Shown: piece by piece, positions 28,162 through 45,697 of the stretch
How the letters are laid out: each line of letters begins with the position of its first letter
Numbering within the stretch: position 1 is the first letter of the stretch
Origin: an uncultured Chloroflexia bacterium
GTDB lineage: Bacteria; Chloroflexota; Limnocylindria; Limnocylindrales; CSP1-4
Assembly: GCA_963713975.1 (NCBI GenBank)
Contig: OY970218.1
Span: 1,177,683 to 1,241,682 of the forward strand
Length of the DNA stretch: 64,000 bases
Reading direction: 5' to 3'
The notes under the pieces: generated by a model
The model's input: only the letters and a program-made list of their open reading frames with translations
What the model was told of the DNA's origin: nothing
Database searches by the model: none
Translations under genes and position numbers: made by a program

Positions 28162-28620
28162 TTGCCCCGCATATGGCGCATCATCGAACGCCCCTGCGGA
28201 GCAGCCGAACTGACAACGCTGGACAACGCACCCCCGCTGATCGAGACGAAGTTCTACGTCCCCAGGCGCCGAGGCGTGGTCGCACGTCCGAGACTGCACG
28301 AGCGTCTGTCCCGCGGGGTCGAGTCGAAGCTGTCGTTGGTCTCCGCCCCGGCAGGCTTCGGCAAGACGACGCTCCTAGCCGAATGGCTCGCCTCCGCTCC
28401 GAGCGGCCGAAGGTCGGTGGCGTGGCTCTCGCTCGACCCAGGCGACAACGAGCCCACCTCCTTCTGGGCTTACGTGATCGCGGCGCTGCAGGTGGCGGCG
28501 CCGGGGGTCGGCGCGAATTCTCTCCCGCTGCTGCGGGACCCGCCAAGGGCTACTGGCGCAACCTACGACGAGACCCCGGCCGATGGCCGGGGTCTCCAGC
28601 GACTGACTGACTCACATGTC
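28162..28620 (+). pseudogene. N-terminal fragment of a MalT/LuxR-type ATPase regulator, truncated
   Basis: ...ETKFYVPRRRGVVARPRL...LSLVSAPAGFGKTTLLAEWL...WLSLDPGDNEP..FWAYVIAAL is the canonical N-terminus of large LuxR-family regulators. The coding signal ends at ~28600, where repeats begin. Confidence 0.65.
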
Positions 28621-28655
28621 CCGACTCATGTGACTCATATGTCGCGACTCATGAC
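28607..28655 (+). repeat. Degenerate short tandem repeats GACTCA(C/T)(AT)ATGTC x4
   Basis: GACTCACATGTC-CC-GACTCATGT-GACTCATATGTC-GC-GACTCATGACATGG, immediately 5' of recombinase-tail copy C. Seen directly in the sequence. Confidence 0.6.
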
Positions 28656-28763
28656 ATGGCGCGCCCGACAGGAGTCAAACCGCCGGGTACCCACTCTGGA
28701 TTCAAGTCGATCCCGATCGCGGGCGCGCACGATTGGGAGGTCGGAACAATGCGCAGCGCGTAG
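28656..28763 (+). repeat. Copy C of the recombinase-tail repeat (encodes MARPTGVKPPGTHSGFKSIPIAGAHDWEVGTMRSA*)
   Basis: Starts GGCGCGCCCGACAGG and ends CCCGATCGCGGGCGCGC, like copies D, A and B. The reading frame and stop are conserved with the A/B tails. Confidence 0.55.
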
Positions 28764-28883
28764 CCGTGTTCGAGCGCTGGTCGACACCTGGACTGAAAGC
28801 TGCTGAAGCGGGACGCGTGCCATTGACAATTCGCCCAGCGAGTTCCCTGGGAGCGCGGCGCCCACAGGTTGGCGTGAACGCCC

Positions 28884-30125
28884 ATGCCGAGATGGGAATC
28901 GGCGTCGGCGATGATCCTCACGAATCGCCCGCTCGTGCCCTCTTCGTCCGACTATCATCTGGCCATTCGGTCGGCGCCGGTTCGGGGGGCATCCTTGAGC
29001 TCAGAACGTTTCGACGCGTGGGGGCTCCGCGGAGCATCCCCCATCGCCGAACCGCGCCTGCGGCTGAACGTCGTATGCCCCTACTACACGATGTTTCCGC
29101 TGTCCTTCCCGCTTGCTGCGCTGGCGGACGCCCAAGTTGGTGACGCGGTTCTGGACCCATTCTGCGGGCGGGGGACGACCGCGTACGCGGCCCGGCTGCG
29201 GGGCATGAGGTCGGTGGGAGTCGACGCAGACGCTGTGGCAGTCGCGGTTGCGAGGGCGAAGCTCGCATCCGGCTCGCCTGAGCAGGTCGAGGCCCGATTA
29301 GAGGAGCTCTTGGGGACAGTGCCCATACCGGCACACGTGCCCACTGGGGACTTCTGGAAGCTGGCATTCGACCACGGGACCCTGCTGGACATCTGCCGTG
29401 TCCGGGAAGCCCTCCTCACCCGTGACACGGCCTCCGACGTGCTGCTTCGGGCGATCCTCCTCGGCGTGCTCCACGGACCGCAATCGGTCAAAGCGCCCAA
29501 CTACCTGTCGAACCAGATGCCGCGCACGTATGCGACGAAGCCCGGACCGGCCGTGAGCTACTGGATTCGAACCGGGCACCTCGCCAGGCGCGTCAACATT
29601 CGCGAGGTGGTGCGCCGACGTGCGCGGTACATCCTGCGCGACGTGCCGGACGTGTCCTTCGGGAGGGTGCTGCGTGGCGATTCGCGGCGCCTCCTTGACC
29701 TCGGCATAGTCGAGCGATTCGACTACGTCGTGACTTCCCCGCCATACCTCGGAATGCGGAGCTACCGGCCCGACCAGTGGTTGCGGCACTGGTTCCTCGG
29801 CGGCCCTGAGGACGTGGACTACGGTATGACCGACATGATGTCGCCGCGGCTCGAGTCGTTCTCATCGGAATTGGCCAAGGTCTGGCATGGGGTAGCGAAG
29901 CTGAGCAGGCCGAGAGCCTCACTGACCGTCCGCTTCGGCGCGCTTCCCAGCGTCAAGGCCGATCCGGAGCGCGTCATGCGTGCGTCCTTGGTAGACACGG
30001 GCTGGGAAGTCACCTCAGTGAGGTCCGCGGGCACGGCGTCTGCGGGCAAACGTCAGGCGAACCACATGAACAACATTGGCGAGCCGGCGGACGAGATCGA
30101 CCTCCGCGCTCGCTTGATCGCTTGA
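28884..30125 (+). CDS. DNA methyltransferase (N6-adenine/N4-cytosine, amino-MTase)
   Basis: Motif I VLDPFCGRGTT and motif IV TSPPY ~190 aa later (alpha-type order). Stop overlaps the next start (ATGA). Confidence 0.8.
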   Translation: MPRWESASAMILTNRPLVPSSSDYHLAIRSAPVRGASLSSERFDAWGLRGASPIAEPRLRLNVVCPYYTMFPLSFPLAALADAQVGDAVLDPFCGRGTTAYAARLRGMRSVGVDADAVAVAVARAKLASGSPEQVEARLEELLGTVPIPAHVPTGDFWKLAFDHGTLLDICRVREALLTRDTASDVLLRAILLGVLHGPQSVKAPNYLSNQMPRTYATKPGPAVSYWIRTGHLARRVNIREVVRRRARYILRDVPDVSFGRVLRGDSRRLLDLGIVERFDYVVTSPPYLGMRSYRPDQWLRHWFLGGPEDVDYGMTDMMSPRLESFSSELAKVWHGVAKLSRPRASLTVRFGALPSVKADPERVMRASLVDTGWEVTSVRSAGTASAGKRQANHMNNIGEPADEIDLRARLIA

Positions 30126-31288
30126 TGTTCGACGACGAGAGCCTGCCGCGGATCCGGGCGGCAATCCGTGAGCAAACTGTCGGCGACCGTGTCTTGCTCG
30201 ACGGCATTCGCTCGGAGGTAAGGCCAGTTGCCGGGAACGTGAGAGCTATGCGCCCGCGGACCGCAACTGCCGTCTCGCTCGTTGCCAGTGATGGCGGCAA
30301 CAACAAGCTCGAGTTCGATCCGTTCTACGTCCAGCTCGTTCGGGTTGTCGATTCCTACGGGAAGGAGCTCTTCTTCGACGTGATTTCGCCGTCCACGGAC
30401 ACCGATGAACTCAGCAATCGGCAGTTCGATGCCGACGGTGCCCCGCAGACAGCCCTGGGTCTCCTAATGAAGGACCTAGGGGTCGACCGACTATACCGAT
30501 TGAGCCCGATGATCCCGACCGGTAGGAAGACGCGCGAAGAACCAGAGAAGGTCGCCCCGGGTTGGGTGATGACCTACCGGGACCTGTGCGAGTGGGCGGT
30601 CCTCTACGAGCGCATCGTAACGACCAGGTTCGGCACCGACACCCTCATCGTCCGCGACGGCTTCCTTCGCTCGAAGGTCTTCTCAGGCGACCTGTTTGTC
30701 AAGATGGGCGAGCATGTGCAGGCAGCGATCGACCGGATCTACCGCCAGGATCGACTCCGGGTCTTTCTCGTCGGACTGGCTAAGCACAGCCAAGTGCTCA
30801 CGCGATACAGCCTTGCGATGGCCATCGAGGGCACTCTGCCTCCTGGTGAGCCCAGGTACCTCCCGATTCCACGAGAGATGGAGGCTCGGGCGTACCGCTG
30901 GTCTGAGTACGCCCGTGGGCGCGAGGACGAGGCTGCCAGGGAGGGTGAAGCCGCCAAGTTCGTCCTTGGTTCGATGTACTTTGCCCGCTTCGGGAAAATG
31001 GCTGGCGACCCGGTGTGGGCGATCGACCTCCTAAGCTCCCAGACTGGGGCGGCGGCGGAGATCTTCGGCTATCTACTGCAGGATGCCATCGATGGTTTCC
31101 CGGTCCCGTACTACCCGCGGTGCCTGCAGCGCGCCCACGAGCACGCTCAGATCGTCGACTTCGACCTCCAGATACTTCAGGACGAGGTCTATCGGGCCGT
31201 CCGAGACCTTCTCCCTGGTGACAAGCAACCGGTACTCGACGCGCTGCAGCTGGGCGTGGGCGATGTCGCCGCAAGGAGGTATGGGTGA
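30122..31288 (+). CDS. NurA-like 5'-3' nuclease domain protein
   Basis: N-terminal LVASDGGNNKLEF...VQLVRVV fits the NurA (V/I)DGS catalytic motif. A second Asp block is LIVRDGFL. Translationally coupled to the MTase and to the HerA-like gene. Confidence 0.55.
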   Translation: MMFDDESLPRIRAAIREQTVGDRVLLDGIRSEVRPVAGNVRAMRPRTATAVSLVASDGGNNKLEFDPFYVQLVRVVDSYGKELFFDVISPSTDTDELSNRQFDADGAPQTALGLLMKDLGVDRLYRLSPMIPTGRKTREEPEKVAPGWVMTYRDLCEWAVLYERIVTTRFGTDTLIVRDGFLRSKVFSGDLFVKMGEHVQAAIDRIYRQDRLRVFLVGLAKHSQVLTRYSLAMAIEGTLPPGEPRYLPIPREMEARAYRWSEYARGREDEAAREGEAAKFVLGSMYFARFGKMAGDPVWAIDLLSSQTGAAAEIFGYLLQDAIDGFPVPYYPRCLQRAHEHAQIVDFDLQILQDEVYRAVRDLLPGDKQPVLDALQLGVGDVAARRYG

Positions 31289-33417
31289 GGATCTTCCCGA
31301 AGGACAAGGTTGTCGGGATCTTTCGGGGATTCAGCGAGGGCGGGCTCGAGTTCCACGCGGATCTCGTCCTCCCGTACCGCCCCGAGTTCCAGGCCTCGCC
31401 CATGCATGGCCAGTTCGTCGTGGTCGCGCTCGAGTCCGATGACGAGGCCGTCCTTGGCAGGATCACCTCAGTCAGCGCCCAAGGCCGCCTCGCCTCTGGT
31501 CCAGGTGAGGACTACAGCCTTCGGGCTGTCCGCGACGAGCGGTCTGTTCCGGAAGACCTTCGCGAGCAATACTTGAAATACCAGGTCGACATCCGGGTCC
31601 TCGGGGTGATTCGTGCGGTGAACGGCGAGGTCGTCTACGCGGCATCGCATCGACGACTCCCCCACGTCGGCAGCAAGGTCGCCTTTCTCGGCGACGAGCT
31701 CGTCTGCGAACTTGCCGGGGCAAACGCTGAGGGAGCCGAGCTTGGCTACTTCGCGCTCGGTGAGTTCATCTATGCGGGCGCAGACGAGAGATTCCAGGCG
31801 GAGCCGTGGATGCGGATGATGGCGCCGCGGGTGACGCCGAAGTTCCCGGTCCAGCAATTGGTTTCGCGTCGGACCTTCGTCTTCGCGAGGGCGGGCTTCG
31901 GGAAGTCGAATCTCGTGAAACTCCTGTTCAGCGACCTTTACAGCCAGACGCCGACCGTCGAGAAGCGCGGTGGTCGACGCGTACCGGTTGGGACGGTCAT
32001 CTTCGACCCCGACGGCGAGTACTTCTGGCCGGACGACAAGAATCGGCCCGGTCTGTGCGACGTACCAGGCCTGCGCGACCAAATCGTCGTTTTCACCAAC
32101 CGAAAGGGTCCAAGCGCCTACTACCAGTCGTTCGTGGTGGGCGGGATCAAGCTCGACATCCGTCGCCTACGGCCGGCGGATGTTGTCGCGATCGCCCTCG
32201 CCCCTGAGAAGCAGGATCAGCAGAACGTGCGGAAGCTGAAGGGCCTGAGCGACGGCCGCTGGACACAGCTTGTCGACGAGATCTACCGAAACGGAAACAA
32301 CGCGGACGAGCAGAAGCTGATCGAGATCCTAGGGCTGCAGGATCGCCAGGAGATGGAACTCTACGCAGCCCGAGCAAACATGACAGAGATCGTTCGGATG
32401 CTCCACGATCCGAGCAGCCAGATGATGGATATGCTCCTCGCGGCACTTCGCGACGGGAAGCTATGCGTCATTGATGTCTCCCAGATGCGGGGAACTCCCG
32501 CACTCGTTCTCTCGGGCCTAGTCCTCAATCGCATCTTCGACCACAACCAGCAGGAGTTCACCGAGGCTGCCCCTAAGACGATCCCGACAATCGCGGTCGT
32601 CGAGGAGGCACAGTCGGTCCTGTCGAACACGGGAAGCTCCGGATCAGGGCCCTACATCTCGTGGGTGAAGGAGGGCCGCAAGTACGACCTAGGCGCCGTC
32701 TTGATCACGCAGCAGCCGGGGAGCATTCCTCAGGAGATCCTCAGCCAGGGCGACAACTGGTTCATCTTTCACCTGTTGTCGGCTGGGGATCTCGCAGCCG
32801 CGAAACGTGCAAACGCTCACTTCAGCGACGACCTCCTCAGTTCGCTGCTGAACGAACCGCTCCCAGGACACGGCATCTTCTGGAGCTCTGCCGGGGGCCG
32901 GGCCTACCCAGTGCCAATCCGCGTTCTTCTGTTCGAATCGCTTTACCACCCATCCGATCCAACGTACACAAGAGATGCCGAGGACACCTACGCTGCCGGC
33001 CTCCGGGAGCGCTTCAGGAACACCGTCTCGCAGGTAAGCGATGCCGCGGGTGGGGCGACAGAAACACCCGCATCCGCCGATGATACGGCCACCGACGAAC
33101 ATACGATCGACTTCCTCGAGACCCTTAAGGAGTCGGCGATCCGCAAGGTCGAGAGGGACGGCGAGGTAGGCCGGCGCGTGAGGGGCGGCGGCATGCCATG
33201 GCGCGGGGTGGTGCAGTCCCTCGAGGACGCGCTACCCGACGAGATCGATGACAAGAACAATCTCGCCTACCAACTCGTGCGGCCCGCCCTCGACCAAATC
33301 CTCGGCCTTAACGGCTGGCATACAGAGCGCCGCGAGTCTAGATCAGTGGCCGGCAGGACGACCGTGTGGGTCGTTATGGGTCCCGAGCCTGCAGCTGATC
33401 GTCCTGCAGAGTCCTAA
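31285..33417 (+). CDS. HerA-like (DUF87/FtsK-HerA superfamily) ATPase
   Basis: N-terminal HAS-barrel-like segment, Walker A FARAGFGKSN, Walker B IAVVEEAQS. 710 aa. Confidence 0.7.
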   Translation: MRIFPKDKVVGIFRGFSEGGLEFHADLVLPYRPEFQASPMHGQFVVVALESDDEAVLGRITSVSAQGRLASGPGEDYSLRAVRDERSVPEDLREQYLKYQVDIRVLGVIRAVNGEVVYAASHRRLPHVGSKVAFLGDELVCELAGANAEGAELGYFALGEFIYAGADERFQAEPWMRMMAPRVTPKFPVQQLVSRRTFVFARAGFGKSNLVKLLFSDLYSQTPTVEKRGGRRVPVGTVIFDPDGEYFWPDDKNRPGLCDVPGLRDQIVVFTNRKGPSAYYQSFVVGGIKLDIRRLRPADVVAIALAPEKQDQQNVRKLKGLSDGRWTQLVDEIYRNGNNADEQKLIEILGLQDRQEMELYAARANMTEIVRMLHDPSSQMMDMLLAALRDGKLCVIDVSQMRGTPALVLSGLVLNRIFDHNQQEFTEAAPKTIPTIAVVEEAQSVLSNTGSSGSGPYISWVKEGRKYDLGAVLITQQPGSIPQEILSQGDNWFIFHLLSAGDLAAAKRANAHFSDDLLSSLLNEPLPGHGIFWSSAGGRAYPVPIRVLLFESLYHPSDPTYTRDAEDTYAAGLRERFRNTVSQVSDAAGGATETPASADDTATDEHTIDFLETLKESAIRKVERDGEVGRRVRGGGMPWRGVVQSLEDALPDEIDDKNNLAYQLVRPALDQILGLNGWHTERRESRSVAGRTTVWVVMGPEPAADRPAES

Positions 33418-34538: not shown

Positions 34539-35300
34539 CTATGCAGTCGCCCGTGGCAGGGTGAAGCCCGCGGCCTCGAGGACGGCGTTGAGGCGATCGT
34601 CGGCGATCCGGCGCTGCTCGTAGACGGCCGTCGCTACGAAGATCAGGCCTCCCTCGTTCTCCGCGATCAGCGCGTCGGCGCGGACCTCGGCGTCGGCGAC
34701 GAGTTCTTGGATCCGCACGATCGTGCGGGTCTTGACGTCCGACGTGAGATAGCCGTGCGGGAGACCGTCCTCGCCGCGGCAGAGGTCCGGGCCGCCGAAG
34801 CCCGCCTTGATGAACCGCATCGCGATCGCCGTGGCGGTGTCGTAGTCGTTCTCGCAGCCGCTGGTGTGCTCCCCTAGGATGCATCGCTCCGCTGCGGCCC
34901 CGGCCATCGCAACCAGGAGTGTGTCGAGCATTCGGCCCTTGGTCTCCCAGGGCACCGATGTGTCCTCGAACGGCCCGCCGAGCATGGTCGCCCCGCCGTG
35001 GCGAAGGGGTGATGTCAATGCCGCGCACCAGCACCTTGGTCGGCGAGGCCGCGGCGGCAATGGCATGCCCCTATTCGTGGATGGCCACGAGCCGCTGGCT
35101 GGCGTCCCACGCGAGGATGTGGTCGCGGGCCGCCGGGCGGACGGTCATCTCGACCATCTCGGTGTTGGACTTGAGGGCCGGGATCGTCAGGGCTGTCGTG
35201 CCCGTCTGCGCTTCTTCGTTCATGCAATTCACGCTGCGGCAGAAGGCTCGCAAACGCAATGGGGTCCGGGATCAAGCGTCCGCGAATTTGACGGCCGGCC
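34539..35300 (-). pseudogene. Degenerate FtsH-like M41 peptidase domain remnant (multiple frameshifts, no AAA domain)
   Basis: Three frames carry consecutive FtsH C-terminal blocks: ...SQRLVAIHE* (the HEXXH region), GHA...VLVRGIDITP..RRG, and GATMLGGPFEDTS...LLVAMAGAAAERCILGEHTSGCENDYDTATAIAMRFIKAGFG. Confidence 0.5.
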
Positions 35301-35830: not shown

Positions 35831-37033
35831 CTACTTGCGCTTGCGGACAGACGTCTCCTTGGACCACTTCGAGTACAGGACCATTGCGCGCTCGATGTCG
35901 TCCGCCCAGCCCGGCAGGCGCTCGAGCGCCAGTTCAGGCGTTATCAGGCTCACATCGGGGTTGGCCGAGATCGTGAATGTGTTCCAGTGACTTGAGGGCC
36001 CTGACGTGGTGCCCTGAGGCGGGCTGAACCGCCCGATGCGCTCGGCCGTGCGCTGGACTTGGCCCCACTTGTCGTTGCTCCACGCCGTGTCCTTGGTCAG
36101 CGGCTCCTTCGCCAGCCTGCCGTCGAGCGACGTCGGGTGGCGCTCGATCAGTTCGACGAGGCGCGGGTCCACCGGCCCGGCATCGATCAGCACCGCCAAG
36201 GGTGAGACCGGCCGAGGAACCAGAATGTTGGGATCGAGGTCCCGGGCATTCCAGCGCCTCCGGTGGTCGCAGGCGAAGCACTGCTTGGTTCGGGGTTCCC
36301 GCTCGGTCAGCGCCCACGGGCCGTCCCTCTTGCCACAGAGCGTCTTCCGGCCATCGCCGGCGTGATAGCCGGCCCGGAGCACGGTCTTGCCTTCCCCACG
36401 CTGGGCCAGCCGCATCATGTAGACCTGCTGGACGATGTCGAATCGCGCCAGGTCCACCTCCGGCATTGCGGCCATGGCCGTAAGGCACGCCTTGCACATG
36501 GAGCCCCTCGGCCAGCGCTTCAGCGATGACGTCCAGCGCCCGGCGGCCTCGCAGAGCGGCGTCTGCGCGCCGACGTGCCATGTCGACGACCCGCGACTGC
36601 CCGCCCGGTCGGACAGCAGCCTCAACTCCTGGTCGCCGACACGCTGGATGTAGGTCGGGGGCTTGGGCTTGGGCTCCGCCCGGGGGCGGGTCGGCCTGAG
36701 GACCGGTCTCGGCGCGGGTCGCTCCGTCACCAGGGGCTTCGGGGCGGGCGGCGGGACCGGCACCTCGCCGCCGCCCGCGTCGATCCACTCGTCCAGCCAT
36801 GCGCGCCTGAACCGGATCCGGTCGCCGACCCGAGTGGAGCGGACCTTGCCGCCCACGGCGAGGTTGCGCACCGTCGTGGTCGAGACGGCCAGGTAGCGGG
36901 CGGCGTCAGCGATCGAGAACAGCGGCTCCGGAGCGGCGGCGGACGCCGGCTCGCCGCCCGCGGCCGAGCGAACGAAGTCCGCGAACGCCCGGATCAGCGT
37001 CGCCTCGGCCGAGTCGTCCACCTCCTCATCCAC
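35831..37033 (-). CDS. Excisionase/MerR-type HTH DNA-binding protein with a Pro-rich linker and a C-terminal Cys-rich (Zn-ribbon-like) domain
   Basis: FSIADAARYLAVSTTTVRNLAVGGKVRSTRVGDRIRFRRAWLDEWI is an HTH_17/excisionase-like motif. Cys pairs CEAAGRW...CKAC...CGKRDG...CFACDH follow. Confidence 0.6.
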   Translation of the reverse strand: MDEEVDDSAEATLIRAFADFVRSAAGGEPASAAAPEPLFSIADAARYLAVSTTTVRNLAVGGKVRSTRVGDRIRFRRAWLDEWIDAGGGEVPVPPPAPKPLVTERPAPRPVLRPTRPRAEPKPKPPTYIQRVGDQELRLLSDRAGSRGSSTWHVGAQTPLCEAAGRWTSSLKRWPRGSMCKACLTAMAAMPEVDLARFDIVQQVYMMRLAQRGEGKTVLRAGYHAGDGRKTLCGKRDGPWALTEREPRTKQCFACDHRRRWNARDLDPNILVPRPVSPLAVLIDAGPVDPRLVELIERHPTSLDGRLAKEPLTKDTAWSNDKWGQVQRTAERIGRFSPPQGTTSGPSSHWNTFTISANPDVSLITPELALERLPGWADDIERAMVLYSKWSKETSVRKRK

Positions 37034-37781: not shown

Positions 37782-40700
37782 GTGACTACAGCCCGTAGGC
37801 TGTCTCTCATGAATGTCAGTCGGGGGACCATTCGCTCCTACCTCAAGGGGCTCCAAGACATCTCGCTCGTCTCCGGCGCGACGGAGCACACGTACCGCGA
37901 GCCGCTCGTGACCTTCCTCGTGGCGGCGAGCAAGGACCTCGGCCTCGGGCAGGTCGGCGTCCACGGCGAGTTGCGCCTCGCGTCCGTCGGCCAGCCCGAC
38001 CTCCAGGTCGTCAACGCGGCCGGCTCGCCGATCGGCTACGGCGAGACCAAGGTCCCGGGCTCCGCGACCGACTTCGCCAGGACCCTCGAGAGCGAGCAGG
38101 TCGAGCGGTACCGAGCCAGCATCCAGAACCTCCTCGTCACCGACTTCATCCACTTCTCGCTGTTCCGCGCCGACGTCGGCCGCCTCGACGTGACGCTGGT
38201 CGAGACACCCGCCAAGATGGCCGCCGGCTCGCACGCGGTCTCGGAGCCCGTGCTCCTACAGTTCAGCCAGATGCTGGCGGCGTTCTTCTCGGCGTCCGCC
38301 CCGAGCGCGACCTCGGCCGAGCAACTGGCGGACGGACTGGCCCGCCGGGCGACGCTGCTGCGCGACGCCATCCGGACGCTCATCGGCGCGTCCCTGCCCG
38401 AGGGCGAAGCGCTGCGGCGTCTCTGGGACTTCTACAAGCGCAGCCTGATGTCGGACATGGACGCGGACGACTTCGCGGACACGTACGCCCAGACGCTGAC
38501 CTACGCGCTGTTCCTCACCCGCCTCGAGAAGGGGCCGATCACCGATCTCGAGGCGGCCTGGAAGGCGATCCCGACGGACGTCCCGATCATGAAGTCGGCG
38601 ATCGAGCCGCTCCGTGCCGCGGGCAAGATCCCCGACCCGCTGGCTGTCTGGCTCGAGGACTCGCTGCACCTGCTGGCCGCTACGCCGGACTCGGTCATCG
38701 AGACGATCGGCCACCCGAGCGCCGGCAAGTCCGACCCGATCCTGTACTTCTACGAGCACTTCCTCGCGGCCTACGACAAGGTCGAGCGGATCAAGAAGGG
38801 CGTCTACTACACGCCCCGCCCGCTGGTCGACTACTTGGTCCGGGCGGTGGACGACACCCTCCGCGCCTCCTTTGGCAAGCCACTGGGCCTCGCCGACAAG
38901 GACGTGCGGCTCCTGGACCCGGCCCTCGGGACCGGCACGTTCCTCCTCGCCGGCGCCCAGAAGGCGGCAGACGAGACGGAAGCCGCTCTCGGCTCCGGCG
39001 CGGTCAAGGGGGTCCTCGAGGACCACGTCCTGCGCCACTTCTACGGGTTCGAGTTGCTGCCGGCGCCGTACACGATCTCGCACCTCAAACTCGCCCTCTT
39101 CGCCCGCGACCACAACGTCAAGTTCCTCGACAAGCGCGCCCAGGTCTTCCTGACCAACACGCTCGGCGACCCGGTCCAGCGCGCCGACGATGGCGGCCTG
39201 CTCGCGTTCTTCGTGCCGGGGCTCATCGAGGAGGCGGCGGCTGCCGAGCGGGTCAAGGCCGACCAGCCGATCCTCGTGGTCATCGGCAATCCGCCCTGGT
39301 CCGCGACGAGTCACAACAAGCAGCCCGAGATCGAGCGCCTCTTCGACGCCTGGAAGAACGTCGACGGTCGACCCGGGAGCCCGAAGATCAAGGACGCCCG
39401 GATCGCGCTCAACGACGACTACCTGAAGTTCCTGCGCTGGGCGGTCTGGAAGGTCGTGGAGCAGCCCGGCGGCGCACGCCACGGCATCGTCGCCTTCGTC
39501 ACGAACCACGGCTTCATCAACAACCGTGTCCACCGCGGCGTCCGCAAGGCGCTCCTCGATGCCTTTGACGACATCTACGTCCTCAACCTCCAGGGCAACC
39601 AGCGCCTGTGGGTCAAGGGCGTCGTCGACGAGAAGGTGTTCCCCGACGTGCAGCAGGGCGTCGCGATGACGGTCCTGGTACGGCGGGATGTCGAGAAGAC
39701 CGGCCTGGCGAAGGTGCGCTATCGCGACCGACGCGGAACACGCGCCGAGAAGTACGACACGGCGAATAGCGCAAGGCTCGACGATGACGGGTGGGTTCAC
39801 GTCCCGCAATCGGCCCCGTACTGGTCATTCGCCCCGGCGGACGCGCCGGTGGAGGGGGAGGAAGCCGGCTCCTACGACACTTGGCCGTCCGTCGTGGACA
39901 TCTTCCCTGTGTCGAGTTCGGGGATCCAGTCCTCACACGACGACCTGGTGTCCGACTTCAGCGCTGCCGCCGTCGGGAACAAGATCGCCGAGGTAGCCGA
40001 TCGGTCGATCTCCGACGACACGCTTCGCGAGCGCTACAAGATCAAGGAGAACGATCGCTGGCGGTGGGCCGTCCAGCGCAAGGCGTTCGCGGGGCTCGAC
40101 TCCGCGAAGGTGATTCCCTGGCTCTACCGCCTCTTCGACCGACGCTACGTGTACTGGGATCCGCTGTTCGTACAGTGGCCTCGAACGAAGGTGATGCGCC
40201 ACCTGCTCCCTCGCCCGATCGGTCTCGGCGGCGACAAGCGGCTGGCGCTCGTGGTGCAGCGCGCCCGTCCGATCACCACGATCGCGACCGTCGTCCGTGG
40301 CCCCGCGACGGCGCATGTCACGAGCGAGTGGTGCCACGTCTACCCGCTGAGGCTGTCTGACGCGACTGAGGAGGAAGTCCTCCTGCCCGCGCCCGACGAG
40401 TGGCGAGAGAACCTGAACGCCGACCTCTCCAAGCGCCTCGCTGCGGCATACGGCCGGCGCCCGTCGGTCGACGAGGTGGCCTGGTACGTCTTCGCGATCC
40501 TGTCTGCTCCGTCGTACCGTCGCCAATTCGCGGCTGCGCTGGCGATCGACCATCCTCGAATCCCGTTCGCGTCCGCCGAGGCGACCTTCAGGATCGGCGC
40601 ATCACTGGGCGAGAAACTTGGCCGCGTCCACCTCCTCGAGGCCGAGGTATCGCCCGACATTCGCTTCGTTGGCAGCGGCACGAACGTGATCGAGGGAGTC

Positions 40701-40973
40701 CGCTACGACCAAGAGTGCGAGCGAGTCTGGGTGAATGCCACCCAGGCCTTCACGGGCGTCCCGAACGAAGCCTGGATCTGGGGCGAGCACTTCCGACCTC
40801 TCGAGCACTTCCTTGATGACCGTCAGGGGCGACGGCTCGACACGGAGCAGATCGGCGCCTTCCAGTCGGCTATCCACGCTGTCCGCGAGTGCATCCGCCT
40901 TGGCCCGATCCTGGACGCGGCGCTGGACAGCGTTCTGTCAGAACCACTCGACGTCACCGAGCCCTTGGTTTAG
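37782..40973 (+). CDS. Type IIL/IIG restriction-modification enzyme (MmeI-like: N-terminal PD-ExK nuclease + gamma-class N6-adenine MTase + TRD), 1063 aa
   Basis: N-terminal QPDLQVV...GYGETKV (D-x12-ExK). MTase motifs YYTPRPLVDYLV, LDPALGTGTFLL (motif I) and VIGNPPW (motif IV). A long C-terminal target-recognition region follows. Confidence 0.75.
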   Translation: MTTARRLSLMNVSRGTIRSYLKGLQDISLVSGATEHTYREPLVTFLVAASKDLGLGQVGVHGELRLASVGQPDLQVVNAAGSPIGYGETKVPGSATDFARTLESEQVERYRASIQNLLVTDFIHFSLFRADVGRLDVTLVETPAKMAAGSHAVSEPVLLQFSQMLAAFFSASAPSATSAEQLADGLARRATLLRDAIRTLIGASLPEGEALRRLWDFYKRSLMSDMDADDFADTYAQTLTYALFLTRLEKGPITDLEAAWKAIPTDVPIMKSAIEPLRAAGKIPDPLAVWLEDSLHLLAATPDSVIETIGHPSAGKSDPILYFYEHFLAAYDKVERIKKGVYYTPRPLVDYLVRAVDDTLRASFGKPLGLADKDVRLLDPALGTGTFLLAGAQKAADETEAALGSGAVKGVLEDHVLRHFYGFELLPAPYTISHLKLALFARDHNVKFLDKRAQVFLTNTLGDPVQRADDGGLLAFFVPGLIEEAAAAERVKADQPILVVIGNPPWSATSHNKQPEIERLFDAWKNVDGRPGSPKIKDARIALNDDYLKFLRWAVWKVVEQPGGARHGIVAFVTNHGFINNRVHRGVRKALLDAFDDIYVLNLQGNQRLWVKGVVDEKVFPDVQQGVAMTVLVRRDVEKTGLAKVRYRDRRGTRAEKYDTANSARLDDDGWVHVPQSAPYWSFAPADAPVEGEEAGSYDTWPSVVDIFPVSSSGIQSSHDDLVSDFSAAAVGNKIAEVADRSISDDTLRERYKIKENDRWRWAVQRKAFAGLDSAKVIPWLYRLFDRRYVYWDPLFVQWPRTKVMRHLLPRPIGLGGDKRLALVVQRARPITTIATVVRGPATAHVTSEWCHVYPLRLSDATEEEVLLPAPDEWRENLNADLSKRLAAAYGRRPSVDEVAWYVFAILSAPSYRRQFAAALAIDHPRIPFASAEATFRIGASLGEKLGRVHLLEAEVSPDIRFVGSGTNVIEGVRYDQECERVWVNATQAFTGVPNEAWIWGEHFRPLEHFLDDRQGRRLDTEQIGAFQSAIHAVRECIRLGPILDAALDSVLSEPLDVTEPLV

Positions 40974-43579: not shown

Positions 43580-44773
43580 CTACCGCTTCGTGGCGGCCCG
43601 GCGCACGAGGACCATCAGGTCACGCGCCATGGCCGGCCGCTGTTGGCTCAGGTCGTCGCGTGTCTGCGCTGGCGCTGAGAGGTGACTGACGATCCGGTCG
43701 CCACCGCTCATGTTCATGGTCATGGAGGTCGGGCTGGCTTCCTGCTCCGCGCGAGTCCGCCAGGCCGTGTAGGAGGCGCCGAGGAGGGCTGCAACGAGGA
43801 CCACGTGGCTCGCCCGCCGGCCGGCATCTATCCGCTCGAGGACTCGGTCCACGAAGGTCAGATCCGCCTCCAGGTCGTCCAGCACCTCCTCCTCGACGAT
43901 TCCGCGGAGGTACATGCCGCGTTCCGCAGTACGGATGACGGGGCGCGTGACGACGACGGTGCCCTCCTCGTCGATGGCGACCCAGCCACGGGATTGGCGG
44001 GCCACCAGGCTGTTGCCGCTGATGCCGGTGGTTGTTCCTTCACCCCGCTCGAGGACCGGTCGGTCGCCGTAGAGCGCCTCCCGCTCGAGCCAGGACGCGA
44101 GGGTCGGGTCCTCGAGTTCGGACGGCCGAAGGAGTGCGGAACGAGGCGTGGCCGTCCCGACCAACACGAGCGTGGCCTCGCCGACTGTGTTCCGGGCCTG
44201 CGGCACCAGAGCGAGCGCTCGCTCGAGCCCGTCCTTGGCCGCCTCCGCCGCGAGGGCCGGGGCGGCACCTGCGCGCGGTGGCGCGGATCGGGTGGGCGTG
44301 GCGAGCGGCTCGTCGACGGCATCCGGGACATCGACGTCGAAACCCCAGGCCTTGAGTTGTTCGAGCGCCGCCGCGAAGGCCGGTTCGGGATGTTCAGGGT
44401 CGAGGTGGCGGTACACCGGATTGGTGTTGCTGGCCAGGGTGACCCCGCTCTGCTTCAACACGCAGATGCGACTGCGCAGGCGCGGCATTGTGCGGGCACG
44501 AGCAATCTCGTCGGCGATGTTCGGTCGGGTGAACTTGCCGGCCTCCTGGTCGACGGTCGCGAACACGACCACCGCCTGCGATCGCTCGAGGTATGCGTTC
44601 ACGTTGTCTTCAGGGGAGTACGCATCGTCGATCAGGGGCAGATCAGACACGATGTAGCCCTGAACGCTGGGGCGAAGCAGATCCCGGAACGGTCGCGCCA
44701 AGGCAGCCTTCTGTCCCTCGGTGACGCTGAGGAATACCGCTGGTCGCGCCCGCACGCCCGCATCCGTTGTCAT
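43580..44773 (-). CDS. Hypothetical protein with an N-terminal TIR-like/flavodoxin-like fold (tentative)
   Basis: Alternating beta-strand blocks VFLSVTEG...VVVFATVDQE...ICVLKQSG are reminiscent of TIR/SLOG domains. Start taken at the ATG for MTTDAGVRARPAVF... Confidence 0.35.
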   Translation of the reverse strand: MTTDAGVRARPAVFLSVTEGQKAALARPFRDLLRPSVQGYIVSDLPLIDDAYSPEDNVNAYLERSQAVVVFATVDQEAGKFTRPNIADEIARARTMPRLRSRICVLKQSGVTLASNTNPVYRHLDPEHPEPAFAAALEQLKAWGFDVDVPDAVDEPLATPTRSAPPRAGAAPALAAEAAKDGLERALALVPQARNTVGEATLVLVGTATPRSALLRPSELEDPTLASWLEREALYGDRPVLERGEGTTTGISGNSLVARQSRGWVAIDEEGTVVVTRPVIRTAERGMYLRGIVEEEVLDDLEADLTFVDRVLERIDAGRRASHVVLVAALLGASYTAWRTRAEQEASPTSMTMNMSGGDRIVSHLSAPAQTRDDLSQQRPAMARDLMVLVRRAATKR

Positions 44774-44817
44774 GGCCACATCGTCGCATCCCGACGCCGA
44801 CGTACGCTTGCATCCAT

Positions 44818-45697
44818 GACGGATGCACTGCTCGACGCGATCAAGAAGGGGGTTGCCGACCCGGCCCAAGCGCCGGCGATCCACGACCTCATGCACCAGC
44901 AGGTCGCGGACGTGGTCAAGGTCATCGGGACGGACGAGCGGTTCGCGATCGGCATCGCTTTCTCAGACGAGGAACTGGCGCGCCGAACGGATGCCCTCGA
45001 GGAAGTCGCGGCTCCCATCGTCCGAGCGGCCGCGTGGGGTGGCTTCTACGGCGCTGCGAATACGCGCCCGTTGTGGCCCGGGCTCGTCGGACGGCTCGCC
45101 AACGGCGTCGACCGGACCCGGAAGAACCCCGCGCACGACGTCTGGCCATTGCTCGACCTGCACCCCGCGGTTCTCCTCTCGTACGCGGCAGGAGTCGGCG
45201 CGATGGCGGGCGGTCGTCCAGACCTACTCGGCGCTTTGCTCGCCGGCCGCACCGTGCTGGAGGGAAACGAACTTCGCGCCGTCGGCCTGCAGATCCACGC
45301 GACGACGCCCTTCCTCAACGACAGCATCGCCAACCGTCTGCCGGGACGAAGGACAACAACGCCGGCAAGCGATCGGGTCTACCAGGCGTTGGCGTCAGCC
45401 TTCGATGGTCTGGTCGTTGACGAGTCTGTGCTCGCCCATGCCTTCGACCGATACGAGTACGTCCTCAGCCTGATGCGGTTCGACGCGTCGAGAGGCGACG
45501 GCGACCGAGGCTGGGCACCCGCTGGCAGATTCGCTTGGCGACGCGAGGACGGCAGCCGCGTCATGGACGAGATGAAGGCAGAGATCGAGGCGAGGGGCAC
45601 GGAGTGGCCGCTCCTCCGCGAAGGGCTATTCAAGGGTTCGTCGGACCGACTGGCGACCGCCGTCGAGGGGCTCGGAAAGACACTCCAGCGCTGGTAG
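44818..45697 (+). CDS. Hypothetical protein (divergent from 43580-44773)
   Basis: ~290 aa counted from MTDALLDAIKKG... No motif recognised. Confidence 0.4.

What the first reader, a model, noticed from the sequence alone, without database searches (positions are those of the whole stretch)
28884..33417. Translationally coupled operon of a DNA methyltransferase, a NurA-like nuclease and a HerA-like ATPase: candidate restriction-like defense module
Three genes overlap by 4 nt at each junction (ATGA), so they are very likely co-expressed. The first is an amino-methyltransferase with clear motif I (DPFCGRGTT) and motif IV (SPPY). The second has the NurA-type (V/I)DGS block (LVASDGGNNKLEF). The third is a HerA/FtsK-superfamily ATPase with a HAS-barrel-like N-terminus plus Walker A and B motifs. 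HerA-NurA is known as a DNA end-resection machine in archaea and some bacteria. HerA is also the ATPase partner in several recently described anti-phage systems. I do not recognise a described system that couples HerA-NurA to a dedicated DNA methyltransferase. The architecture suggests the MTase marks self DNA while HerA-NurA degrades unmodified DNA, which would make it a Type I/III-like restriction logic with a different motor and nuclease. The operon sits at the edge of an island that starts at a truncated gene and a recombinase scar.
Basis: partly seen in the sequence, partly recalled or inferred. Interest (0 to 1): 0.85.

Follow-up and report, generated by a model that had tools for sequence, protein, structure and literature searches.

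The report
Methylase plus NurA/HerA-like restriction cassette
Three coupled genes (a DNA methyltransferase, a NurA-type nuclease and a HerA-type motor ATPase) form a rare, horizontally mobile cassette found in bacteria and archaea that looks like a methylation-based counterpart of the recently described phosphorothioate defence system TdpABC, though its function is untested.

The parts
28995..30125 (+). Gene A: SAM-dependent DNA methyltransferase, 376 aa (the open frame extends up to ATG 28884). Motif I DPFCGRGTT lies at 29154-29180 and motif IV SPPY at 29736-29747. The order I...IV differs from the usual PF01555 order. Predicted N4-cytosine type.
   Evidence: Pfam N6_N4_Mtase 1.2e-7. PADLOC MTase_II 9.3e-15. 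Database protein of 376 aa, 100% identical. Motifs invariant in 71 homologs. UniRef names relatives 'cytosine-N(4)-specific'.
30125..31288 (+). Gene B: NurA-superfamily (RNase H/PIWI-like fold), TdpB-like nuclease, 387 aa (alternative TTG start at 30122). Conserved acidic residues are D57 (SDGGNN, 30290-30292), E157 and D179 (RDG).
31285..33417 (+). Gene C: HerA/FtsK-superfamily, TdpA-like ATPase, 710 aa. Layout: N-terminal HAS-barrel-like region (residues ~1-170), ATPase core (~185-555; Walker A 31885-31908, Walker B 32590-32607), acidic variable linker (~560-605), then the C-terminal domain listed below.
   Evidence: DUF87 4.6e-17 and HAS-barrel 0.012, below threshold. PDB TdpA 6e-19, Sulfolobus HerA 2e-9. 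BLASTP vs TdpA 6e-24 over C residues 181-558. Conservation.
33103..33384 (+). C-terminal winged-helix domain of C (residues ~607-700). It is absent from TdpA (586 aa), TdtA (568 aa) and canonical HerA.
31273..31288 (+). B/C translational-coupling junction: Shine-Dalgarno AAGGAGG, GTG start of C (31285) overlapping the TGA stop of B by 4 nt.
   Evidence: Sequence. The same -4 overlap occurs in 48 loci.
30122..30127 (+). A/B junction TTGATG: stop of A (TGA 30123-30125) overlaps the start of B by 1 nt (ATG 30125) or 4 nt (TTG 30122).
   Evidence: The database B protein is 387 aa.

Best explanation
This is a self-contained, horizontally mobile, three-gene restriction-modification-like cassette, built like tdpC-tdpB-tdpA but using base methylation in place of phosphorothioation. 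The following points are shown here. A is a DNA methyltransferase with an N4-cytosine-type signature. B is a NurA-family nuclease most similar to TdpB. C is a HerA/FtsK ring ATPase most similar to TdpA, with an added winged-helix tail. The three genes are co-oriented, translationally coupled, co-inherited and co-evolving. The following steps are inferred. A methylates host DNA at its target sites. B and C assemble into a HerA-hexamer and NurA-dimer translocase-nuclease, as in HerA-NurA and TdpAB. That complex loads on DNA, pumps it with ATP and degrades DNA lacking the mark, while methylated self DNA is spared. The favoured sub-mechanism, by analogy with TdpAB (recalled from An et al. 2025, not read here), is that the modification blocks translocation or nuclease action. 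How a base methyl group would be read is unknown. The winged-helix tail of C, or the methylase itself, are candidates.
Against: No experiment exists for this family. B-C persist intact with a methylase lacking its SAM-binding half (L085), with only a remnant (L024), or with no nearby methylase (L045, L058, L071). This is unexpected if B-C attacked all unmethylated DNA. More distant B-C pairs occur without a methylase, one of them beside RecQ and FtsK. In the Thermus ICEth1 operon of the same gene content, loss of the methylase had only minor effects and the nuclease and ATPase were needed for DNA donation. No mechanism is known for a HerA pore to sense a base methyl group. No specific co-variation was found between A and the winged-helix tail (partial rho 0.15). 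Neighbourhood 'defence enrichment' was not tested against a background.
Confidence: 0.55

Rival explanations
1. This is a defence cassette with Type I/III- or BREX-like logic. The methylase is an obligatory targeting or activating subunit of the B-C machine, not merely a protector, so B-C alone is inert and unmethylated target sites recognised through A trigger translocation and cleavage.
For: Loci with a truncated or missing methylase but intact B-C are viable, as expected if restriction needs the methylase. A evolves faster (mean pairwise identity 0.52) than B (0.63) and the C core (0.73), so specificity probably resides in A. The A-B overlap suggests co-translation and stoichiometric assembly.
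Against: In one third of loci A lies after C, sometimes inverted or 3 kb away, and it can be swapped for an unrelated Dam-type methylase. That is harder to reconcile with a specific protein-protein interface. The homologous TdpAB is reported to act as a complex without its modification enzyme (PDB 8wet and 8wfd titles).
Confidence: 0.2
2. This is mobile-element DNA-processing or export machinery, as proposed for Thermus ICEth1. There the NurA-like nuclease and the HerA-like TdtA, in an operon with a PF01555 methylase and a type IIG enzyme, drive 'transjugation' (DNA donation to competent neighbours).
For: The gene content and one of the two gene orders (B-C-A) are the same as in TTC1878-1880. 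The window also has a type IIG enzyme 4.4 kb downstream and an HTH_17 excisionase-like gene. The distribution is patchy and mobile.
Against: TdtA is 568 aa and lacks the winged-helix tail, so it resembles TdpA more than C. The type IIG enzyme is not linked to the cassette in 84 other loci. No integrase, relaxase or conserved fourth gene travels with it, and there are no att repeats. It is absent from 72,556 plasmids. It occurs in methanogens and many phyla with no known transjugation. The Thermus phenotype could itself be a side effect of a restriction system cutting the chromosome.
Confidence: 0.12
3. This is a housekeeping HerA-NurA DNA end-resection/repair pair that merely sits beside an orphan or regulatory methyltransferase.
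For: NurA-HerA is the canonical archaeal, and Deinococcus, end-resection machine, and B has the NurA fold. A distant B-C pair lies beside RecQ and FtsK without a methylase.
Against: The cassette is present in under 0.1% of species genomes, with cross-domain transfer. There is no Mre11/Rad50 linkage. Linkage to a methylase is 92%, with non-orthologous replacement. The contexts are variable and island-like, and the closest solved relatives are the defence proteins TdpA and TdpB rather than repair HerA and NurA.
Confidence: 0.07

Closest known systems
TdpABC phosphorothioate-based R-M system of thermophiles (An et al. 2025, Nat Chem Biol; PDB 8wet, 8wfd, 8y1k)
   Same: It is a three-gene cassette in the order modification enzyme, NurA-like nuclease, HerA-like ATPase (L104). 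B is the nearest structural and sequence relative of TdpB, and C of TdpA. Both are small insertions with a GC dip.
   Different: The modification gene here is a PF01555 DNA methyltransferase, not a PAPS-reductase-like PT synthase. Identity is only 16-26%. C carries an extra acidic linker and a winged-helix domain that TdpA lacks. The mark would sit on the base rather than the backbone, so the sensing mechanism cannot be simply transferred.
Thermus thermophilus ICEth1 'DNA secretion' operon: TthHB27I/Tth111II, NurA-like TTC1878, TdtA, methylase TTC1880 (PMC5365140, PMC7767461)
   Same: A NurA-like gene (377 aa), a HerA/FtsK-like hexameric ATPase and a PF01555 methylase (410 aa) are co-transcribed on a mobile element, with the same order as the B-C-A variant.
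   Different: TdtA is 568 aa with no C-terminal winged helix. A type IIG enzyme is part of that operon, whereas here it is separate and not conserved with the cassette. The function assigned was DNA donation, not defence. Sequence homology to the window proteins could not be tested.
Canonical HerA-NurA end-resection complex (Sulfolobus, Thermococcus, Deinococcus)
   Same: It has the same two folds, the same adjacency and the same translational coupling. The aspartate of the N-terminal DGG motif aligns (B D57 with Sulfolobus NurA D58).
   Different: The window B protein has no Pfam NurA hit. There is no Mre11/Rad50 linkage. The cassette is linked to a methylase and has a sparse, mobile distribution.
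HerA-partnered antiphage systems (SIR2-HerA, DUF4297-HerA) and DndFGH/'HerA-FtsK capture' systems
   Same: A HerA-type ATPase acts as the motor or scaffold of a defence effector. The PADLOC HerA models hit C at 1e-15.
   Different: The effector there is SIR2, a DUF4297 nuclease or a REase rather than NurA. Those systems have no dedicated modification gene. The hits cover only the C-terminal half of the ATPase.
MADS (8-gene methylation-associated defence system)
   Same: It uses methylation-based self-marking. There are weak PADLOC hits to mad2 (4.8e-9) and mad8 (2e-10).
   Different: MADS has eight genes, with mad6-8 mandatory. It has no counterpart of B, and the hits reflect generic methylase and P-loop similarity.

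Membership tests
NurA nuclease superfamily (PF09376) | RNase H/PIWI-like NurA fold | tested here: met
NurA nuclease superfamily (PF09376) | Match to the Pfam NurA profile | tested here: inconclusive
   The window protein has no hit at E<=0.1. 13 of 37 family relatives hit PF09376, best 6.2e-10. The family profile vs Sulfolobus NurA gives only E 0.063.
NurA nuclease superfamily (PF09376) | Conserved catalytic acidic residues (N-terminal D-G motif, E, and D of the second D-G motif) | tested here: met
   D57, E157 and D179 are invariant or nearly so in 36-37 relatives. D57 aligns with Sulfolobus NurA D58 in a weak HMM alignment. Catalysis itself is untested.
HerA/FtsK ATPase superfamily | DUF87/HerA central domain above the Pfam threshold, with Walker A and B | tested here: met
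   63.3 bits vs a cut-off of 23.2. GFGKS and VVEE are invariant in 73 homologs.
HerA/FtsK ATPase superfamily | N-terminal HAS-barrel | tested here: inconclusive
   Pfam HAS-barrel gives 16.2 bits against a cut-off of 25.2. The region is strongly conserved, but no structure of it was modelled.
HerA/FtsK ATPase superfamily | Hexameric ring that binds a NurA dimer | not testable with these tools
   This needs biochemistry, or complex modelling, which was not available.
TdpABC system | TdpA-like ATPase and TdpB-like nuclease encoded together | tested here: met
TdpABC system | TdpC, a PAPS-reductase-like DNA phosphorothioation enzyme | tested here: not met
   The first gene is a PF01555 methyltransferase. 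PAPS_reduct is found in the true Tdp locus L104 but not here.
TdpABC system | Restriction blocked by the cognate modification | not testable with these tools
   This requires in vivo or in vitro assays.
Classical R-M (Types I-III) | DNA methyltransferase with SAM-binding motif I and catalytic motif IV | tested here: met
   DPFCGRGTT and TSPPY are invariant. PADLOC MTase_II 9e-15.
Classical R-M (Types I-III) | PD-(D/E)XK, HNH or GIY-type REase, or an SF2 helicase-nuclease (HsdR/Res) | tested here: not met
   B has an RNase H-like NurA fold and C is HerA/FtsK. No REase or SF2 domains were found.
ICEth1 transjugation operon | NurA-like gene, HerA-like ATPase and PF01555 methylase in one operon | tested here: met
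   Gene content matches the published description.
ICEth1 transjugation operon | Type IIG enzyme in the same operon, within an ICE carrying an integrase and att repeats | tested here: not met
   The type IIG gene is 4.4 kb away, behind opposite-strand genes, and is absent from the other loci. No integrase or direct repeats were found.
ICEth1 transjugation operon | Sequence orthology to TTC1878, TTC1879 and TTC1880 | not testable with these tools
The size mismatch (TdtA 568 aa vs C 710 aa) argues against orthology.
MADS | mad6, mad7 and mad8 core within an 8-gene operon | tested here: not met
   Only weak mad2 and mad8 hits were found.

The most novel reading that the evidence does not exclude
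A HerA-type ring translocase with a NurA-type nuclease acts as the restriction arm of a base-methylation (probably m4C) R-M system. This would make 'modification gene + NurA + HerA' a general, modular class of prokaryotic immunity whose modification arm can be a PT synthase (Tdp), a PF01555 methylase (this cassette) or a Dam-type methylase (cyanobacterial variants). It would be shared by bacteria and archaea, and would require a new way for a DNA pump to read base methylation, possibly through the added winged-helix domain.
Probability: 0.45. Interest if true: 0.72.

Novelty: new variant of a known kind. Interest (0 to 1): 0.62.

Why it matters
If confirmed, this would extend the Tdp paradigm, a HerA/NurA-like machine serving as a restriction endonuclease, from a niche thermophile phosphorothioate system to ordinary DNA methylation in many bacterial and archaeal phyla. 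It would add a motor-nuclease type to the R-M repertoire that current defence-finding tools miss, since B has no PADLOC, Pfam or NCBIfam model. It would also prompt re-examination of the Thermus 'transjugation' phenotype as a possible by-product of such a system. The cassette is compact at 4.4 kb and highly conserved, so it is directly testable. The family offers isolates for methylome mapping, including Methanosarcina horonobensis, Acaryochloris marina, Methylacidiphilum fumariolicum and Calderihabitans maritimus.

Tried and rejected
MADS was considered because of the PADLOC mad2 and mad8 hits. It was rejected because it is an 8-gene system with a different core.

Menshen was considered from memory. 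It was rejected because NsnABC are ParB-DUF262, ATPase and inPIN-nuclease proteins with no HerA or NurA.

The Aravind-lab 'HerA/FtsK capture' and BREX-related systems do not describe this triad.

Direct sequence searches of B against Pfam, PADLOC, NCBIfam and the PDB found nothing. Only a diverse family profile and fold comparison resolved it.

Plasmids and phage genomes hold no copy, and viral contigs hold only 4.

The search for att-type direct repeats and for promoter or terminator consensus was uninformative.

A test for co-variation between the methylase and the winged-helix tail of C gave only a weak partial correlation (0.15).

Attempts to obtain Thermus ICEth1 protein sequences failed. 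I tried the paper's supplement, cluster names of distant representatives, and plasmid records, so that homology remains untested.

The Tdp paper itself is not in the held library. Its mechanism is cited from my recollection and from secondary mentions.
Full report
OBSERVATION. The window holds three co-oriented ORFs at 28884-30125, 30122-31288 and 31285-33417. The first gene almost certainly starts later, at TTG 28995. The database protein from the same genome is 376 aa and 100% identical. Homologs align only from ORF residue ~55 onward. A G-rich ribosome-binding site lies 5 nt upstream. The junctions are not literally 'ATGA'. A/B reads TTGATG: the stop is TGA 30123-30125, and B starts at ATG 30125 as in the 387-aa database protein, or at TTG 30122. 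B/C reads AAGGAGG-N5-GTGA, a 4-nt start/stop overlap. The -4 overlap at B/C recurs in 48 related loci. The region has lower GC (0.61-0.64) than its flanks (0.68-0.70).

IDENTITY OF THE THREE PROTEINS. A matches Pfam N6_N4_Mtase (1.2e-7, above threshold) and REBASE-derived Type II methylase models (9e-15). In 71 homologs, motif I (DPFCGRGTT), motif IV (V-T-S-P-P-Y) and an N-terminal CPYYTMFP block are invariant. Motif I precedes motif IV, the reverse of the usual PF01555 order. The TSPPY block is the classical N4-cytosine signature (my own knowledge), and UniRef names relatives 'cytosine-N(4)-specific'. PDB sequence hits cover only the motif regions and do not settle the base specificity.

C matches DUF87/HerA (4.6e-17). 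The HAS-barrel match is sub-threshold. Its best solved relative is TdpA (6e-19), ahead of Sulfolobus HerA (2e-9). Walker A and B are invariant. C carries about 150 extra C-terminal residues: a variable acidic linker, then a conserved ~100-residue domain that models confidently (pLDDT 89) as a winged helix.

THE TRIAD IS A CONSERVED, MOBILE CASSETTE. B has more than 1,800 database relatives, 62-67% identical in Planctomycetota, Methanosarcinales, ANME-2 and Firmicutes, but only 400 clusters at 50% identity in 1.84 billion representatives. A scan of one genome per species found 146 relatives in about 185,600 genomes, spread over many bacterial and archaeal phyla. C is adjacent to B wherever there is room. 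A is adjacent in 68 of 74 informative loci: 48 as A-B-C, 16 as B-C-A and 4 as B-C-A inverted. Two cyanobacteria lacking A carry an unrelated D12/Dam-type methylase next to C. Pairwise distances of A, B and C are correlated (rho 0.75-0.88), with the C core the most conserved and A faster-evolving.

None of the window's neighbouring genes recurs next to the cassette elsewhere. The 120 nearest genes in 32 loci show no recurrent fourth gene. They include other R-M parts, GmrSD, HNH, recombinases and transposases, alongside some housekeeping genes. Annotated contexts add HicAB, HepT/MNT, HD, NACHT and Prok-JAB. In the window itself, a type IIG restriction-methyltransferase (2.9e-160), a PDC-S65 defence candidate and an excisionase-like HTH gene lie within 12 kb. 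The cassette is absent from PLSDB plasmids and INPHARED phages and is nearly absent from viral contigs.

COMPARISON WITH TDP. TdpABC is reported as a third phosphorothioate R-M system, in which a single gene, tdpC, makes the modification. Using the TdpB fragment shown by HMMER, I recovered the authentic locus from a metagenome. It reads PAPS-reductase-like gene (344 aa), TdpB (375 aa), TdpA. It is inserted among housekeeping genes and shows a GC dip. This is the same order as A-B-C. Direct BLASTP gives C vs TdpA 6e-24 (26% over 436 residues, ending exactly where C's linker begins) and B vs TdpB 4e-6. The window cassette therefore has the Tdp architecture with a methyltransferase in place of the PT synthase, and with an added winged-helix domain on the ATPase.

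MECHANISM. The identities, coupling, co-inheritance and mobility are shown. The rest is inferred. A marks host DNA. B and C form a ring-translocase/nuclease complex, as HerA-NurA and TdpAB do. That complex degrades DNA lacking the mark. Support comes from the homology to a known restriction pair, the 92% linkage to a methylase, and the non-orthologous replacement of the modification gene (PF01555 methylase, Dam-type methylase, PT synthase) around a constant core.

CAVEATS. One genome has lost the SAM-binding half of A yet keeps B-C at 99.9% identity to an intact relative (L085). L024 keeps only a remnant of A, and L045, L058 and L071 have no nearby methylase. These cases favour either a methylase elsewhere in the genome or a Type III/BREX-like logic in which the methylase is needed for restriction. 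More distant B-C pairs (29-37% identity) occur in several arrangements: with a PF01555 methylase; with an MmcB-like gene; beside type III-A CRISPR and a C5 R-M pair; or beside RecQ and FtsK with no methylase. The methylase-linked cassette is thus one clade of a broader pair family.

The Thermus ICEth1 operon (type IIG enzyme, NurA-like 377 aa, TdtA 568 aa, PF01555 methylase 410 aa) has the same gene content. Its nuclease and ATPase are required for DNA donation, and loss of its methylase has minor effects. I could not obtain those sequences, so orthology is untested. TdtA's size matches TdpA rather than C.

KNOWN OR NEW. PADLOC 2.0, Pfam and NCBIfam have no model for B. Database names for B and C are generic. 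Full-text searches found no description of a methylation-linked NurA/HerA defence system. MADS and Menshen are different systems. The closest described systems are TdpABC and the ICEth1 operon.

VERDICT. I classify this as a new variant of a known kind, with moderate-to-good interest (0.62). My confidence is high that the cassette is a TdpAB-like pair plus a methylase, and about 0.55 that it works as a modification-dependent restriction system.

Noticed in passing
window 28609-28657: Three exact copies and one variant copy of GACTCAYRTG cluster about 340 nt upstream of the start of A, inside the tail of the doubtful ORF 28162-28806. The whole window has 4 exact matches against 0.53 expected. 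This could be an operator, a promoter element or an integration remnant.
   Followed up: partly
window 37782-40973 (+): A 1063-aa type IIG restriction-methyltransferase (PADLOC REase_MTase_IIG 2.9e-160; N6_Mtase and Type_ISP_C domains) lies 4.4 kb downstream of the cassette. It is not linked to the cassette in other genomes.
   Followed up: yes
window 43682-45697 (+): A 671-aa protein matches the PADLOC phage-defence candidate PDC-S65 (8e-37) and has no Pfam domain. Together with the type IIG enzyme, this suggests a defence island spanning roughly 29-46 kb.
   Followed up: no
window 34539-35066 (-) and 35831-37033 (-): There is a short FtsH-like M41 peptidase fragment (175 aa, only part of the domain) and a 400-aa protein with an N-terminal excisionase-type HTH_17. 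These may be remnants of a mobile element between the cassette and the type IIG gene.
   Followed up: no
window 28162-28806 (+): A 214-aa ORF has a P-loop-like N-terminus (GFGKTTLL) but no Pfam hit and no matching fragment elsewhere in the window.
   Followed up: partly
L085 9349-13664 (GCA_900198705.1) and L024: The methylase gene has lost its 5' half, including motif I (L085), or is reduced to a C-terminal remnant (L024), while B and C remain full length.
   Followed up: partly
L070 13352-14233 (-) and L073 13353-14240 (-): In two cyanobacteria (Atlanticothrix, Cylindrospermum) the PF01555 methylase is absent and a D12/Dam-class methyltransferase sits convergent to C.
   Followed up: partly
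L096, L099, L102: Distant B-C pairs (29-37% identity) occur with other partners: an MmcB-like gene overlapping the start of B (L096), type III-A CRISPR-Cas plus a C5-methylase/NgoFVII pair (L099), and RecQ/FtsK with no methylase (L102). These suggest a broader family with more than one role.
   Followed up: partly
L104 6588-10518: The authentic tdpC-tdpB-tdpA locus, recovered from a hot-environment metagenome contig of 137 kb, is a 4-kb insertion with a GC dip between lipoate and 2-oxoacid dehydrogenase genes. A 686-aa HTH plus methyltransferase-domain protein is encoded 0.7 kb upstream on the opposite strand.
   Followed up: partly
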